From contig CAWHZN010000012.1 of NCBI GenBank assembly GCA_963833865.1, forward strand, positions 6,241 through 70,240: a stretch of DNA of 64,000 bases, in the 5' to 3' direction. Every line of letters begins with the position of its first letter. Position 1 is the stretch's first letter. The DNA is from an uncultured Parachlamydiaceae bacterium (lineage in GTDB: Bacteria; Chlamydiota; Chlamydiia; Chlamydiales; Parachlamydiaceae). A program made the position numbers and the translations under genes. The notes beneath the pieces were generated by a model. That model made no database searches. It saw nothing but the letters and a program-made list of their open reading frames with translations, and was not told the DNA's origin. Positions 30,288-37,698 of the stretch are shown in pieces.

Positions 30288-32024
30288 TCAGCTGGAAGGG
30301 TATATGGATCGAGAAAAGGACATACCACTATGTATTCCAGAAAAGTTGCTTGGAAGTGTAATAATTTGATCCACCTTTGATGTGAGGATAGGGCGGTGGG
30401 TAATGATGATTTTCGTTGTATTTGGTAGAAATTTCTCAATGTTTTTTTGGATAATAAAATCTGTATCTTTATCTAAAGATGAGGTGCTTTCATCAAAGAT
30501 ACAGATTTTTGGTTTTCTGAGAAAAAGACGTGCAAGAGCAAGACGTTGTTTTTCACCCCCTGACAATTTCAATCCACGATCACCCACAACTGTTTCAAGA
30601 CCTTGGGGTAGTTTTTTGACAAAGTTAAGAAGCTCTGCTTGATCTAAAGCAGCTTCTATCTGGGCAGATGTAGCGTCTATTGACGAACGAGTTGGATGTT
30701 TGCCTTAATTGTATCATGCATTAAGTAGCTTTCTTTGTGGAACCCAGCATATGGTCTCATAAAGAGACTCTAAAGAAAAACTCTTTAGATCAATTCCGTT
30801 AATGAGTACGTGGCCTACAGTAGGTTCATATAATCTGAGGAGTAATTTTGCAATAGTCGATTTTCCTATACCTGTTGGGCCAACAATCAGAGTCGTTTCT
30901 CCTTCTTTTATCTTAAATGAAATATTATCTAAAATTGTCCTGTCACTATACTTAAATGAGACATTTTCAAAATTGACCTGAAAACGAGTCCCTGTTAAGA
31001 CAAGAGGGTTCGAAGCCTCAGCAATCTCACTCTTTGTTAACAAAAGATCGAGAATTCCCTTCATATCAAGAAGGGCTTTTTTAATATCCTGCAAAATGGC
31101 TCCCAAGATCCCAATGGGTATAATAAGTTGTAATACATAGCCATTAAACAGCACAAAATCACCAACCGTAAGGGTTCCATTCAATACATCCTGGCCAATG
31201 AAGTAGGTTAGTGAAGAAAGCCCAATTCCTAAAATGAGCGTTTGCCCCAAATAAGAAAGATAGTATTTTGTCAAAAAAACAACTTCGGCAGCTTCTCGCT
31301 TTTTTAACTCTGCCTCACAAGTGCGAATGGCTAATCCATACTTTCCGAAAACTTTAATGGCTTCATAGTTTGAGAGCCAGTCTGTAACAATACCATCAAC
31401 GGCCCTATCAATCTCGTTGGCTTTTTCACGAATTGTTAAAATTCTTTTATTAGAAAATAAAGTATAAGTGAAAAAACACCCAAATATTCCTGTCATTAAA
31501 AAACTATAGAAAATGGGATAAATGTTAAAAATCAGAATAATAACAACCAAAAATTCAAGAAAGGTTGGAAGAATGTGAAAAAATAGCCCAAGAATAATAT
31601 GGGGTACATTCTGCTGGGCTCTCCTGATAACATTTGCTAACTCGCCCGGTTTTTGGTCAAGAAAATAGCTATGCGAGAGTTTAAAGAGATAGTTAGAACC
31701 TTTGTTCCTAGAATTACTGTCATATGTTGTTCAATAGTAGGGTTAGAAGGGCGCGGATATGGAAGGAAGCCTGGCTGATCATCCAAATCAAACCATAGCT
31801 GAGCAACATGAGCGAGATCGTCAGAGAAGGCTCTGAGGAAAAAGCCTGCGACGATCTTTTTAAGAACGAGCGGAATCGATAAATTTGAAAAAACACCTAT
31901 AGCTAGCCCCATGAGCGAAGAAAAAACGCCGGCGCATTTTTTTGTTCTCAAAGGTGGAGATAAGAATTTCTTTGATACACTTTCCATAGTGTTTTCTGTC
32001 GATTTCATCTGGACTTTTCATCAT
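30288..32024 (-). CDS. ABC exporter, TMD+NBD (lasso cluster D / McjD-ATM1-like), several frameshifts
   Basis: Fragments 31637-32008, 30714-31550 and 30288-30587: NYEAIKVF, TVGDFVLFNGY, GPTGIGKST, WVPQ, LSGGEKQR, IFDESTSSLD; probable start ATG at 32024 after AAGGGGG. Confidence 0.8.
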
Positions 32025-32054
32025 TCTTACCCCCTTGATTTCCGCTTTGTGCGA

Positions 32055-34881
32055 TTACATAATGTCGGAAACCCATAATGTGCTATCTGTTTTTTCGTCT
32101 TTACCAGAACTACCATTTATATAAGCGCAAAAATCATCAAAATCCTTAACCTCATCAAGATCATCAAACGTTTTTCCTTTATTAAGAAGAATGTACCTAT
32201 TGTAATAGTCCTCCCTTTCCTTTTTATCAGTGCTTAACCTCGACATACTGCGAAGCATAAAGGGATCATTGTTGTGACCTAATTTTTCCGCTTCTTTAAA
32301 GTACATTAAAGCAACTGCAGTCTTCTCTTTCTTTTTATTGACGTAAAAAGAATCTCTCGATTTTTTATAGAAAATACGCCCCAGATTTCTCTGCAAAGAG
32401 TGTGTTTTTGCTTCATGCCCCTTTTTTAAAATACTGAATGACTTTTTTCATATCTATTTTACTTAAGCCGATATCTTTATAGTGACGATAATAAATGATT
32501 CCTAAAAGATAATGCATCTCGCCATTCACATATTCCATGGCCTCAGCTTCTTCCATACTCAATTTTGCTGTTAAGTAGTCTTGCTTTACCCCTCGGCCAT
32601 GATAGTGAAACGTCCCTATCTTGAAAAGGGCAGCTGGGTATTGCTTTGCTTTGGCCTTATTATAGTATTCTAGGGCGATCTTATAGTCTTTGAGGAACAC
32701 CTATGCCACCTTCATACATTTCTCCCAGATGGAACAGTCTTTTGCAAATCCTCTCTCTGCAGATAGTGCGACTAACTCAAATGCTTTTTTGAGATCCTTT
32801 TGGACGTAAAGACCCTTCTCATACATAATCCCCAGTAAATACTTGCTCTCTAGATTTCCCAGACTGTCGGATTTGGAATAGACCTCGAATGCGGTTTCAT
32901 ACTTTTTCTCTTCTTCTAACCTTTGACCTTCCTTCAGGAGATTTTTTGAAGTGATTCCAAGGAGATGGATACTGTCTTTATCTCCTCTTTTGCTCCCTTC
33001 CAGGTACCATAAAAGGGCTTTATCTTGCTCCTTAGCGTTTTCATAAATCTTGCCAAGCTGAAAAAAGGAACTTTCATATCCCAGGAGAGCAGCATTTTCA
33101 TAAAACCACTTGATGCTTTCTTTGGATCCTTGTGTTATTTCTAAATTCCTTGCTAATTCAAAGAAATTTTTCCCTTCTATCGAAAAACTATTCATTAAAT
33201 GGTTGAGGGTATTATCTAATTTACTTTGCAATTCTCTCAGGGTAATTTTGTCTTTATTTTCTTCCAATACCCCAGTGGAGATCTCAAGAGGTTGTTGATA
33301 GTCTTTATCTGAAATTCCATGAGACACCAAAAAGTCCTTGTCATAATTCATCCTAATTTCTTGAGAATTTAGGTAAGTAAATTCAAAATACTTTGGGACA
33401 TGATGGTGTTTTACAACTTTTTGTAAATGGTTATTAAGAATTTCCTTCATTTTTCCATCGCTAAACCTTGGAAATTCGATGAATTTAAAGAATCGTGTTT
33501 TTAAAGCATCATAAAAGAAGTCTTTTTTCATATTTTGATTGGCTGTAATGATAATGTTGAGATGACTTATATCTATATATGTATTAAAAAAGGGACTATA
33601 GAATTTAGTTTTCTGCGGATCTATATAATCAAGAAGCCAGCAGAGAGTCGATATTGCAGCATCGGACGTGGAATTCTCTAAAATCCTGTCAAGATCATTA
33701 ATAATTAAAAAGCAATTTTTATAGTTCTTTCGATCTTTTATAGTTTCTTTTTTCCCCTCTATGAAGGGCTTTGTCAACCATCCAACTGTTGCACCAGGAT
33801 TCAGGCGCTCTGTTCCCTCTAAGCTCATTTGAGAAAGGTCAGAAGATGACCGTATATTCATTTCAAGATAAGCTTCTCCCAAGAATTCTGGTATGAGCTT
33901 TGCGGCCAGTGTTTTACCACAAGAAGGGTCCCCGGAAAAGTAATATGCTTTTTTGGTCGGTACTTCTTTGGATTCAGAGGTAGAATCGACAGCAGTTTGA
34001 GTAATGATGTCATATAAGTTCCCTCGGACGCTTTGGCTAAAGTTTTGGAAAACTGGTGTGTTGTCAAATCTTTCCCGAAGATCAACTCTTGATTTCTGGG
34101 GAGTTTTCGAATCAAAAAGAATTTTTGTTTCCAAAGGTAGATTTAAAGAGGTTTTTAGGAATGCTGTTGTAACTCCTGTAAAATACCCCTCAGACCTACG
34201 AGCCTCAATAAGACCTCTTTCTATTTCATCCCTTAATGATTCTTCCTTTATTTTTCTTTTATTTTTAATATATGGAATTTCGTATTTTCTTATAGGTTCA
34301 GTTTGTAATCCACTTTTTAAATCTAGAATTTCGAATTCTAATTTTCTTATTTCACTATTTAACATTTTAGAATCATCTTTAGAAAAGTACTTGTCAATTA
34401 AATGTTCTCCCAACAAATTTGTTATCACAGAAATAACACTTGCGACGCCTTGCCCACAGACACCCCCAATCAATGGATCACCCACGGCTAACCCAAGCGC
34501 ACTTCCTCCTATGAGCCCTCCGCTAAGAACAATTCTTTCTAGACACCTTATAGCATTTTCCCAAAACTCTCTTTTTACAGACTGATTGTAGACTTTTCTC
34601 AGTATTTTGATTTTGCTTTCCACACGCTCTATACAATTTTTCGCAAGTTGGTTTTCTTTTAAGAGATAGAGATGCTTCTCGAGGGCTTCATCAAGCTGTT
34701 CCTCAGTTAAGAGAGCTTCCTTAACTTGAGGTATGAGTTTTTGTAACACCTCCTCTTGATTATAGATTTCCGTGGTAAAGATCTCATCGTATTTTCCACA
34801 GATACCCTCTGAGGGAAACAACATTCCCGAAACAGCAAGCACTCCTAAAATTTTTTTTGATGCAATAACAACTCTATTCAT
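32055..34881 (-). CDS. Signal/glycine-zipper + Lon-like AAA+ domain + Sel1-like repeat protein, frameshifts near 32740, 32690 and 32410
   Basis: Walker A GDPSCGKT; LIINDLDR; LLDYIDP...IDISHLNIIITAN (Lon AAA-like); Sel1 repeats LGIMYEKGLYVQKDLKKAFEL and IGTFHYHGRGVKQDYLTA. Confidence 0.7.
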
Positions 34882-37428: not shown

Positions 37429-37557
37429 TTAGATTGGATTATACCTATGCAATGCACCTTCGTATGATTTCCCTGGATAACCTTGTGTTAACTCAGAAGC
37501 CTTTGTTTCCATAACAACGCTAAAAGGGGCGTTGTCTGTCTCTACAGTGTTTTCCAT
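37429..37557 (-). CDS. Lasso peptide precursor A2 (42 aa): MENTVETDNAPFSVVMETKASELTQ|GYPGKSYEGALHRYNPI
   Basis: Hand-translated; GGAG RBS; Thr at -2, core Gly1, Glu8 acceptor; ASELTQ matches the McjA leader end SASQLTK. Confidence 0.9.
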   Translation of the reverse strand: MENTVETDNAPFSVVMETKASELTQGYPGKSYEGALHRYNPI

Positions 37558-37569
37558 TTTCATCTCCAT

Positions 37570-37698
37570 TTATTTAAAAGGCCAAAATCCCGTCATCCAG
37601 CCTTCAGGTCTCCGGCCCATGACTAAACCTTGCGTTAACTCAGAAGCACTTTCTTCTAAAGTCACTTCATAGATCTCGTTCATATCAATGTTTTCCAT
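37570..37698 (-). CDS. Lasso peptide precursor A1 (42 aa): MENIDMNEIYEVTLEESASELTQ|GLVMGRRPEGWMTGFWPFK
   Basis: Hand-translated; AGGAG RBS; Thr at -2, core Gly1, Glu9 acceptor, aromatic tail. Confidence 0.9.
   Translation of the reverse strand: MENIDMNEIYEVTLEESASELTQGLVMGRRPEGWMTGFWPFK

What the first reader, a model, noticed from the sequence alone, without database searches (positions are those of the whole stretch)
30288..37698. Unannotated two-precursor microcin-J25-type lasso peptide cluster (A1-A2-hairpin-B-C-X-D) in an apparent endosymbiont lineage
Seen in the sequence: two 42-aa ORFs below the ORF-track cutoff, each with an RBS and a leader ending ASELTQ (Thr at -2). Each core begins with Gly and has Glu at position 9 (GLVMGRRPEGWMTGFWPFK) or 8 (GYPGKSYEGALHRYNPI). 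They are followed on the same strand by a hairpin, a fused RRE-peptidase (CLE...AHAWVE), an asparagine-synthetase-like cyclase (SGGLDSS) and an ABC exporter. Established knowledge: this is class II lasso logic; SASELTQ parallels the McjA leader end SASQLTK; clusters with an exporter and no isopeptidase tend to make antibacterial lassos. Inference: these are two lasso peptides I do not recognise, made by a probably host-associated bacterium, perhaps against co-resident bacteria or host targets.
Basis: partly seen in the sequence, partly recalled or inferred. Interest (0 to 1): 0.95.

Follow-up and report, generated by a model that had tools for sequence, protein, structure and literature searches.

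The report
Decayed lasso-peptide cluster in Neochlamydia assembly
This is a real two-precursor lasso-peptide gene cluster of a family already reported in amoeba endosymbionts, but here the ring-closing enzyme and the exporter each carry several frameshifts, so it is most likely a relic of gene transfer and not a working producer.

Summary
On the minus strand lie two 42-aa precursors (leader end ASELTQ, cores starting with Gly, Glu at 9 or 8), a strong hairpin, a fused RRE-protease B (PF13471, NF033537), an Asn-synthetase-like cyclase C, an AAA/Sel1 gene X, an ABC exporter D and a LuxR-NB-ARC-TPR regulator.

Three corrections:
1. **Cluster state.** C carries 5 frameshifts, D carries 6, and the 3' end of X at least 3. 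The precursors, B, the regulator and 28.8 kb of other long genes in the window are open. Random assembly error is therefore very unlikely, and this copy probably makes no lasso peptide.
2. **Novelty.** More than 230 B homologues (60-71% identity) exist, mostly in Paracaedibacter/Odyssella-like Alphaproteobacteria. They have intact A(n)-B-C-D clusters, the same SAS.LTQ|G leader end and often the same regulator. The family was published for Amoebophilus asiaticus (2010, 2022), but no product has been characterised. The two cores here match no other core I found.
3. **Host.** The assembly is a Neochlamydia, but the cluster sits on a 72-kb accessory contig. That contig shows no synteny with five other Neochlamydia and shares no repeats with the chromosome. 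Host assignment is therefore provisional.

Verdict: a new, degenerate member of a known kind, of modest interest.

The parts
37921..37930 (.). Palindrome TCTACGTAGA, 223 nt upstream of A1; probable operator of the LuxR-type regulator
   Evidence: The perfect 10-mer occurs only twice in the 64-kb window, once upstream of A1 and once upstream of the regulator; a one-mismatch variant (TCTATGTAGA) also lies upstream of the regulator. The identical 10-mer lies in the regulator-precursor intergenic region of L030 and L072 at similar spacing. Flanks align over 228 nt at 74% identity to L072.
37570..37698 (-). Precursor A1, 42 aa; predicted 19-aa core with a Gly1-Glu9 ring
   Evidence: ORF and sequence; family pattern; called as a 42-aa gene on an independent Logan contig.
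37429..37557 (-). Precursor A2, 42 aa (alternative start 37569); predicted 17-aa core with a Gly1-Glu8 ring
   Evidence: It shares a 22-nt block with one mismatch with A1.
37392..37419 (-). GC-rich hairpin between A2 and B, with no T-tract; probable attenuator or transcript stabiliser
   Evidence: -22.3 kcal/mol, z = -4.4. A long stem at the same position, with unrelated sequence, is seen in 14 of 24 clusters.
36662..37369 (-). B: fused RRE plus transglutaminase-like leader peptidase, 235 aa, open frame
   Evidence: PF13471; NF033537 above cut-off. Cys170, His202 and Asp214 are invariant in 26 homologues. The model's N-terminal domain matches the lasso RREs TbiB1 and 6jx3_B.
34874..36665 (-). 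C: lasso cyclase (Asn-synthetase-like) pseudogene with 5 frameshifts near 35830, 35510, 35276, 35251 and 35070
   Evidence: tblastn frames -3/-2/-3/-2/-1. Frameshift-aware alignment to four intact 596-599-aa homologues gives the same five sites. The stop overlaps the X start (ATGAATAG).
32701..34881 (-). X: AAA+ ATPase with Sel1 repeats, 726-aa open frame, truncated
   Evidence: PF00004 and PF08238. Relatives of X lie beside lasso clusters in 8 loci. Atlas look-alikes are AAA/AAA_lid_6/Sel1 proteins.
32055..32700 (-). Out-of-frame 3' remnants of X (further Sel1 repeats in other frames); at least 3 frameshifts
   Evidence: Three-frame reading; Sel1 hit on the 95-aa fragment.
30288..32024 (-). 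D: McjD-type ABC exporter pseudogene with 6 frameshifts near 31925, 31849, 31740, 31690, 30734 and 30682
   Evidence: with three intact references of 568-589 aa. PF00664 and PF00005 hit the fragments.
30065..30097 (.). Two copies of the palindrome (TCTACGTAGA at 30065-30074; TCTATGTAGA at 30088-30097), about 100-125 nt upstream of the regulator
   Evidence: Spacing to the regulator start is 101-113 nt in L030 and L072.
26643..29963 (-). LuxR(GerE)-NB-ARC-TPR regulator, 1106 aa, open frame
   Evidence: 50% identical over its full length to the regulator beside the Paracaedibacter symbiosus lasso cluster; 52-57% to those of L030, L032 and L035.

Best explanation
This is a horizontally acquired class II lasso-peptide cluster. 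It belongs to the family that circulates among protist endosymbionts. Its ancestral design is a LuxR-STAND regulator, 1-5 precursors, a fused RRE-protease B, cyclase C, ABC exporter D and often an AAA/Sel1 protein.

In an intact cluster the steps would be as follows (inferred from the lasso literature):
1. The RRE half of B binds the conserved leader (...SAS.LTQ).
2. The protease half cuts after Gln-1, with Thr at -2 as the recognition residue.
3. C adenylates Glu8 or Glu9 and joins it to Gly1 around the tail.
4. D exports the product.
5. The regulator acts through the TCTACGTAGA palindrome.
6. The A-B hairpin sets the ratio of precursor to enzyme transcript.

In this copy, C (5 frameshifts), D (6) and the 3' end of X (at least 3) are pseudogenes. 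A1, A2, B and the regulator still have open frames. The locus is therefore a recently inactivated relic that most likely makes no threaded peptide.

Shown here: gene identities, lesions, family membership, and the alphaproteobacterial affinity of B.
Inferred: the biochemical steps, the operator role of the palindrome, non-production, and the direction of transfer.
For: **Anatomy and domains:**

**Lesions:**
- Five sites in C and six in D are reproduced against four and three intact references.
- The X tail is broken.

**Lesions are not random error:**
- 47 of 53 clear orthologues of a same-genus genome are intact in this assembly.
- Eleven other ORFs of 472-2504 aa (28.8 kb) in the same window are open.
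- Eleven indels fall in 3.5 kb. If lesions were spread evenly over these 32.3 kb, the chance that all 11 fall in C and D is about 3e-11 (my arithmetic).

**No substitute in trans:** one B match only and no other cyclase; the other PF00733 hit is QueC.

**Family:**
- 236 B homologues.
- Intact A-B-C-D clusters in Paracaedibacter symbiosus, Odyssella, many Alphaproteobacteria MAGs and some Chlamydiota.
- Shared leader end.
- Shared regulator and palindrome.
- A hairpin recurs at the same position.

**Transfer:**
- B was not found in 60 relatives.
- The B tree puts the window with the alphaproteobacterial set (87/90), apart from the chlamydial clade (100/99).
- One relative lies beside TraD/MobA.

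**Literature:** PMC8831229, PMC3423634.
Against: - All 14 lesions are indels. There is no nonsense substitution in the corrected frames.
- The corrected C and D are as similar to relatives (58-69%) as intact relatives are to each other (60-66%). This fits very recent inactivation, but also locally bad consensus.
- No independent assembly covers the lesions. The Logan contig stops 327 nt into C, and no second contig carries the D fragment.
- Open frames in B, A1 and A2 are too short to prove continued selection.
- Other genes on the contig are also split (rmlD, a HlyD-like gene), so the contig as a whole is either decaying or less well polished.
Confidence: 0.75

Rival explanations
1. The cluster is intact and functional in the organism. 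The frameshifts are assembly or polishing errors in a long-read-based contig.
For: - Only indels are seen, with no in-frame nonsense codons and no excess amino-acid divergence.
- One site lies in an A8 run.
- Genome completeness is estimated at only 74%.
- Other split genes lie on the same contig.
Against: - Ten of the 11 sites in C and D are outside long homopolymers.
- The errors would have to hit C, D and the X tail 14 times while sparing X's first 2.1 kb between them, B, the 3.3-kb regulator and 28.8 kb of other long ORFs.
- The chromosome shows few broken orthologues.
Confidence: 0.13
2. The 72-kb contig does not belong to the Neochlamydia. It comes from a co-resident Paracaedibacter-like alphaproteobacterial symbiont, or from its plasmid, and was binned into this assembly. 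This concerns the host, not what the cluster is, so it can hold together with the best explanation.
For: - There is no nucleotide synteny with five other Neochlamydia genomes.
- No repeat is shared between any small contig and the 2.1-Mb chromosome.
- Tetranucleotide correlation is 0.95, at the bottom of the range for chromosome chunks (0.94-0.997).
- B, the regulator and the leader style are of the alphaproteobacterial type.
- The contig carries type I secretion and O-antigen-type genes.
Against: - GC content (40% against 38%) and tetranucleotide use are still within the chromosome's range.
- RmlB is slightly closer to Neochlamydia (51-53%) than to Odyssella (47%).
- Contamination is estimated at only 3%.
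- No alphaproteobacterial housekeeping gene was seen on the contig.
Confidence: 0.25
3. The surviving part (regulator, A1, A2, B, truncated X) is kept by selection for a function that needs no ring closure, such as cleaved linear peptides or regulatory use of the STAND protein.
For: - The regulator (3.3 kb) and the first 2.1 kb of X are free of lesions, although their neighbours carry about 3 per kb.
- The operator is present in front of both transcription units.
Against: - There is no precedent known to me for lasso precursors that act without cyclisation.
- B and the precursors are short enough to be intact by chance.
- There are no expression data.
Confidence: 0.08

Closest known systems
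Putative lasso-peptide cluster of amoeba symbionts: Amoebophilus asiaticus Aasi_0899-0902, with homologues in Paracaedibacter symbiosus and Odyssella thessalonicensis (Schmitz-Esser 2010 as cited in PMC3423634; PMC8831229)
   Same: - Same gene set and order logic as the P. symbiosus locus (L006/L040): regulator, two precursors of 41-42 aa, B 234 aa, C 596 aa, D 589 aa, and an AAA protein of 990 aa.
- Window against P. symbiosus: B 65%, D 58%, regulator 50%, X 28%. Window C is 58-64% identical to the intact C of L005, L070, L071 and L072; tblastn against the P. symbiosus C is broken up by the frameshifts.
- Same leader end, SAS.LTQ|G.
- Also lives in an intracellular symbiont of protists, and no product is known.
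   Different: - Here C, D and the tail of X are frameshifted.
- X lies between C and D instead of after D.
- The regulator lies downstream on the same strand with its own operator copies, instead of divergently upstream.
- The cores differ.
- The assembly is chlamydial.
- I did not compare directly with the A. asiaticus genes.
Microcin J25 system mcjABCD of Escherichia coli
   Same: - Same four-part logic: precursor, fused RRE-protease B, Asn-synthetase-like C, ABC exporter D, and no isopeptidase.
- Gly1-Glu8 ring as predicted for A2.
- Thr at leader position -2.
- The leader end SASQLTK resembles SASELTQ.
   Different: - No sequence-level relationship to McjB/C/D was measured here.
- The nearest enterobacterial and Burkholderiaceae loci found give only 28-51% identity to B over part or all of its length.
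- Two precursors instead of one.
- Extra LuxR-STAND regulator and AAA/Sel1 gene.
- This copy is broken.
Chlamydial/verrucomicrobial subfamily of the same lasso family (Rhabdochlamydiaceae and Parachlamydiales MAGs; L044, L045, L048, L054)
   Same: - B is 62% identical.
- Order is A-B-C-D.
- The leader ends in SAS/T.LTQ|G and the core has Gly1...Glu8.
   Different: - A single precursor with a basic MKNIFKK... leader and a conserved core ending ...PTRPRPNAC.
- D is only 40% identical to the P. symbiosus D.
- It forms a separate, well-supported clade in the B tree (100/99). The window's cluster is therefore not the 'chlamydial' type.

Membership tests
Class II lasso-peptide biosynthetic cluster | Precursor with Thr at leader position -2, core residue 1 Gly (or Ala/Ser/Cys), and Asp/Glu at core position 7-9 | tested here: met
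   A1 has LTQ|G...E9 and A2 has LTQ|G...E8. The same pattern appears in 41 precursors of 20 related loci.
Class II lasso-peptide biosynthetic cluster | Leader peptidase B: transglutaminase-like Cys protease (PF13471 / NF033537) with a Cys-His-Asp triad | tested here: met
   PF13471 at 2.9e-24; NF033537 at 94.2 bits against a cut-off of 33. Cys170, His202 and Asp214 are invariant in 26 sequences.
Class II lasso-peptide biosynthetic cluster | RiPP recognition element (PqqD-like), here fused to the N-terminus of B as in McjB | tested here: met
   The model (pLDDT 60-70 in this domain) has a beta-sheet plus helices at residues 2-69. The best PDB matches are the lasso RREs TbiB1 (probability 1.00, TM 0.57 by target) and 6jx3_B (TM 0.62). 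Confidence is moderate; no Pfam PqqD hit was obtained.
Class II lasso-peptide biosynthetic cluster | Intact ATP-dependent macrolactam synthetase C (Asn-synthetase-like, PP-loop SGGLDS) | tested here: not met
   C is homologous over its whole length (58-64% to intact 596-599-aa enzymes) and SGGLDSS is present. The reading frame is broken five times. The genome holds no second copy.
Class II lasso-peptide biosynthetic cluster | Intact dedicated ABC exporter D (McjD type), which defines the exporter-bearing proteobacterial type | tested here: not met
   D is 58-69% identical to intact 568-589-aa exporters but is broken by six frameshifts.
Class II lasso-peptide biosynthetic cluster | Product is a threaded macrolactam (core mass minus 18 Da, resistant to heat and carboxypeptidase) | not testable with these tools
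   This needs expression and mass spectrometry. As far as I found, no member of this subfamily has a characterised product.
Protist-endosymbiont lasso cluster family (Amoebophilus / Paracaedibacter / Odyssella type) | B, C and D orthologous (about 50% identity or more) to those of P. symbiosus and Odyssella | tested here: met
   B is 65% and 62% identical, and D 58% to P. symbiosus; C is 58-64% identical to intact C of other family members (L005, L070-L072). The window's B nests within the family in the tree.
Protist-endosymbiont lasso cluster family (Amoebophilus / Paracaedibacter / Odyssella type) | Conserved leader end ...(E/S)SAS.LTQ followed by Gly, usually with several precursors per cluster | tested here: met
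Protist-endosymbiont lasso cluster family (Amoebophilus / Paracaedibacter / Odyssella type) | Adjacent LuxR(GerE)-NB-ARC-TPR regulator (present in a subset of members) | tested here: met
   Full-length identity of 50-57% to the regulators of L030, L032, L035 and L040. The TCTACGTAGA palindrome is shared with L030 and L072.
Protist-endosymbiont lasso cluster family (Amoebophilus / Paracaedibacter / Odyssella type) | Direct similarity to the founding Amoebophilus asiaticus genes Aasi_0899-0902 | not tested
   The link is only by transitivity. PMC8831229 reports 50-61% identity between A. asiaticus and the P. symbiosus/Odyssella clusters.

The most novel reading that the evidence does not exclude
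The lasso family shared by protist endosymbionts of at least four phyla is a host-interaction system spread on mobile elements inside protists, not an antibacterial microcin. Supporting features are its own LuxR-STAND regulator and palindromic operator, its frequent AAA/Sel1 partner, and its late-infection induction in Amoebophilus. On this reading, the Neochlamydia copy records an alphaproteobacterium-to-chlamydia transfer followed by selective loss of the cyclase and exporter, while the regulator and AAA module were kept for another use.
Probability: 0.15. Interest if true: 0.6.

Novelty: new member of a known kind. Interest (0 to 1): 0.33.

Why it matters
If the reading is right, the window adds three things:
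- two previously unseen lasso cores;
- a further case of gene flow between unrelated amoeba symbionts;
- an example of how such a cluster decays.

It does not reveal a new kind of system or a new producer. The more useful outcome is at the family level. No product of this widespread endosymbiont lasso family has been characterised. The comparative data gathered here give concrete starting points for that work: the conserved leader, the A-B hairpin, the LuxR-STAND regulator with a TCTACGTAGA operator, and the recurrent AAA/Sel1 partner. That work is better done with the intact clusters of Paracaedibacter symbiosus or the close relatives L070-L072.

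Tried and rejected
- **Chance ORFs:** rejected on comparative grounds.
- **Second cyclase or B elsewhere in the genome:** none found; the other PF00733 hit is QueC.
- **Independent confirmation of the frameshifts:**
  - The Logan contig from ERR10755945 carries the methyltransferase, both precursors, B and only the first 109 codons of C, and its DNA was not retrievable.
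  - Exact look-ups showed the C and X fragments and the regulator only in the assembly itself.
  - A homologue search with the 278-aa D fragment found the window's own 260-aa call on one contig and nothing else above 70% identity.
  - The result is neither confirmation nor an intact allele.
- **Naming the organism from exact protein look-ups:** no names were returned. It was solved by RecJ homologues.
- **16S comparison with named genomes:** only coarse.
- **Assigning the 72-kb contig to a host:** protein identity of a type I secretion ABC protein and of RmlB was indecisive. Terminal overlap for circularity was absent; the contig ends in 327-bp tandem repeats.
- **Pfam on the C-terminus of the L039 X homologue**, where I saw a GDCFFHAC motif reminiscent of OTU proteases: no hit.
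- **Pfam/NCBIfam on the two precursors:** no hit.
- **Literature search for the core strings and ASELTQG:** nothing.
- **B tree:** the backbone is poorly resolved (19 of 30 forks open), so only the two supported groupings are used.

Full report
**1. The observation**

The cluster lies on the minus strand.
- Two 42-aa ORFs sit at 37570-37698 (A1) and 37429-37557 (A2). Each has a Shine-Dalgarno-like motif.
- Their leaders end in ASELTQ.
- The cores are GLVMGRRPEGWMTGFWPFK (Gly1, Glu9) and GYPGKSYEGALHRYNPI (Gly1, Glu8).
- The two genes share a 22-nt block with one mismatch across the cleavage site.
- An 11-bp GC-rich hairpin follows at 37392-37419: -22.3 kcal/mol, z = -4.4, and none of 200 shuffles folds as well. 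It has no T-tract and was not picked up as an intrinsic terminator.

Downstream come six further features:
- **B** (36662-37369).
- **C**, an Asn-synthetase-like gene (34874-36665).
- **X**, an AAA/Sel1 gene (32701-34881).
- **Sel1 remnants** (32055-32700).
- **D**, an ABC exporter (30288-32024).
- **A LuxR-NB-ARC-TPR gene** (26643-29963).

**2. Identity of the parts**

- B matches PF13471 (2.9e-24) and the NCBIfam model lasso_biosyn_B2 above its cut-off.
- In an alignment of 26 homologues, Cys170, His202 and Asp214 are invariant. This fits the Cys-His-Asp triad of lasso leader peptidases (established knowledge).
- A structure model (mean pLDDT 70) shows an N-terminal sheet-plus-helices domain. 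Its best PDB matches are the lasso RREs TbiB1 and 6jx3_B. The C-terminal half matches transglutaminase-like cysteine proteases such as LapG.
- C carries SGGLDSS and matches Asn synthase and lasso cyclase models weakly. An intact relative matches equally weakly, so the family is simply divergent.

**3. C, D and the end of X are broken**

- tblastn with intact homologues reads C in frames -3/-2/-3/-2/-1 and D in two frames plus an unmatched start.
- A frameshift-aware protein-to-DNA alignment that I wrote places five frameshifts in C, near 35830, 35510, 35276, 35251 and 35070.
- It places six in D, near 31925, 31849, 31740, 31690, 30734 and 30682.
- The sites are the same whether the reference is L005, L070, L071, L072 or Paracaedibacter symbiosus.
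- Only one site lies in a long homopolymer.
- The apparent in-frame stops in D lie in a short out-of-frame stretch between two shifts.
- X ends at a TAG produced by local shifts, and its Sel1 repeats continue in other frames for about 650 nt.

**4. Are the lesions real?**

For:
- The assembly is not riddled with indels. Of 53 clear orthologues of a same-genus genome, 47 are intact and single-frame. Two of the four broken ones are heavily degraded, like true pseudogenes.
- Within the window, eleven ORFs of 472-2504 aa (28.8 kb) are open, while C and D collect 11 indels in 3.5 kb.
- Under an even spread, the chance that all 11 fall in C and D is about 3e-11 (my arithmetic).
- Local low quality would have to skip the 2.1 kb of X that lies between C and D.

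Against:
- There are only indels and no nonsense substitution.
- The corrected C and D are no more diverged than intact relatives are from each other.
- I could not obtain an independent assembly across the sites.

I put real, recent pseudogenisation at about 0.8-0.85. The genome holds no other B or lasso cyclase; the second PF00733 hit is QueC.

**5. The family**

- B has 236 homologues at E <= 0.001. The best 120 are 52-71% identical. Those with names come from Candidatus Paracaedibacter symbiosus, Candidatus Odyssella thessalonicensis and many Alphaproteobacteria MAGs.
- A scan of species-representative genomes found 36 loci. Most are Alphaproteobacteria/Holosporales. A few are Parachlamydiales, Rhabdochlamydiaceae, a Verrucomicrobia MAG, Gammaproteobacteria MAGs and a Megaera.
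- Nearly all carry intact C (about 596 aa) and D (557-589 aa) in the order A(n)-B-C-D.
- Eight carry an X-like AAA protein. Six carry the full-length LuxR-NB-ARC-TPR regulator (36-57% identity), and two more give partial 27-28% matches.
- I found 41 candidate precursors in 20 loci, all with a leader ending in LT(Q/K/R) before Gly and with Glu or Asp at core position 7-9. Most have the SAS.LTQ motif and one to five precursors per cluster.
- The window's cores are not repeated among them, but they resemble some tails (for example ...RYNPW and ...FWP).
- A long stem at the A-B junction, with unrelated sequence, recurs in 14 of 24 clusters. This argues for a conserved structural role. Such A-B stem-loops are described for proteobacterial lasso clusters (my knowledge).
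- Several relatives also show lesions (L027 C, L043 D, L051 C, L054 B), so decay recurs in this family.

**6. Regulation**

- In the window, the 10-mer TCTACGTAGA occurs 223 nt upstream of A1 and 102 nt upstream of the regulator. A one-mismatch copy lies 23 nt further on.
- The identical 10-mer lies in the shared regulator-precursor intergenic region of the two closest regulator-bearing relatives (L030, L072). It sits 101-113 nt from the regulator start and 235-245 nt from the first precursor.
- The flanks align well above shuffled controls.
- I infer that it is the operator of the GerE-type HTH.
- I also infer that the rearrangement which moved the regulator downstream of D carried a copy of it.
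- C and X overlap by 8 nt (ATGAATAG), so X inside the operon is not a crude recent insertion.

**7. Host and origin**

- Chromosomal RecJ is 91-92% identical to Neochlamydia proteins.
- The genome is 2.29 Mb in 13 contigs, with an estimated completeness of 74%.
- The window lies on a 72-kb contig separate from the 2.10-Mb chromosome contig.
- This contig has no nucleotide synteny with five other genomes of the genus.
- It shares no repeat with the chromosome and has a tetranucleotide correlation of 0.95 at the low end of the chromosome's range.
- It ends in 327-bp tandem repeats of a giant adhesin gene, so it is not closed.
- B was not found in 60 relatives.
- In the B tree it groups with alphaproteobacterial sequences (87/90), away from the strongly supported chlamydial/verrucomicrobial clade.
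- One relative lies beside TraD and a MobA relaxase.
- The simplest reading is acquisition of an alphaproteobacterial-type cluster on a mobile element.
- Whether the contig really resides in the Neochlamydia or was mis-binned from a co-resident symbiont stays open (about 0.25 for mis-binning).

**8. What is known**

- A putative lasso cluster (Aasi_0899-0902), flanked by IS elements, was described in Amoebophilus asiaticus in 2010 (as cited in PMC3423634).
- It is induced late in infection.
- It has homologues of 50-61% identity in P. symbiosus and Odyssella. The authors proposed an unknown role in host interaction (PMC8831229).
- I found no paper that characterises a product, and no hit for the core strings.
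- The system works like microcin J25 (fused B, C, ABC exporter, Gly1-Glu8 ring, Thr at -2). I did not measure sequence similarity to the mcj genes.

**9. Verdict**

- The class II lasso reading is right.
- The claim of two peptides being made is not supported.
- The novelty is that of a degenerate new member of a published but uncharacterised family.
- Interest is modest (0.33). The family as a whole is the more interesting object.

Noticed in passing
window 37921-37930, 30065-30074, 30088-30097; L030 8357-8366; L072 3901-3910: The palindrome TCTACGTAGA lies upstream of both the precursor operon and the LuxR-STAND regulator. It is conserved with its flanks and spacing in the two closest regulator-bearing relatives, so it is a likely operator.
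   Followed up: yes
window 32701-34881; L030, L032, L035, L038, L039, L040, L043, L051: X-like proteins sit beside lasso clusters in 8 relatives. They have an N-terminal hydrophobic/coiled-coil part, an AAA domain and a variable C-terminus of 769-1322 aa. The L039 version has a GDCFFHAC motif reminiscent of OTU proteases, but Pfam gave no hit. Their function is unknown.
   Followed up: partly
window 6886-7458 / 7329-7793; 52616-53332 / 53416-54117; 4958-5524: Other genes on the contig are split or truncated. rmlD is in two overlapping ORFs (profile positions 1-169 and 157-285). A HlyD-like adaptor downstream of the LssB-type ABC protein may be split across two ORFs (only the second gave a HlyD hit). 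A GT2 glycosyltransferase lacks its N-terminus.
   Followed up: partly
window 57937-64000 (contig C12 64177-72141): The contig ends in 327-bp tandem repeats (about 94-95% identical) inside the giant adhesin genes. This is probably why the assembly breaks there.
   Followed up: partly
window 39661-39821 and 40364-40524: A 161-bp inverted repeat pair (99% identical) lies next to the IS200/IS605-type transposase gene (39388-39828). Short matches to the ends of small contigs C3 and C8 lie nearby. The close relative L071 also has a Y1 transposase fragment downstream of its cluster.
   Followed up: no
L044, L045, L048, L054: A distinct chlamydial/verrucomicrobial subfamily of the lasso family has a single precursor with a basic leader and a nearly invariant core (G.PG.F.ED.PTRPRPNAC). 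In L054, B carries a stop.
   Followed up: partly
L005 6191-10505: One related intact three-precursor cluster lies beside TraD-like and MobA/MobL relaxase genes, so it sits on a mobilisable element.
   Followed up: no
window 38145-39047 (+): A class I SAM methyltransferase with an N-terminal signal-like segment lies divergently upstream of A1. The same neighbour is on the independent Logan contig. No link to tailoring is shown.
   Followed up: no
G000 as a whole: The chromosome contig is 2.10 Mb, against 2.5-2.9 Mb in other genomes of the genus, and completeness is estimated at 74%. Only 53 of 134 long ORFs sampled from a same-genus genome have a counterpart of at least 55% identity. The genome is either incomplete or reduced.
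   Followed up: partly
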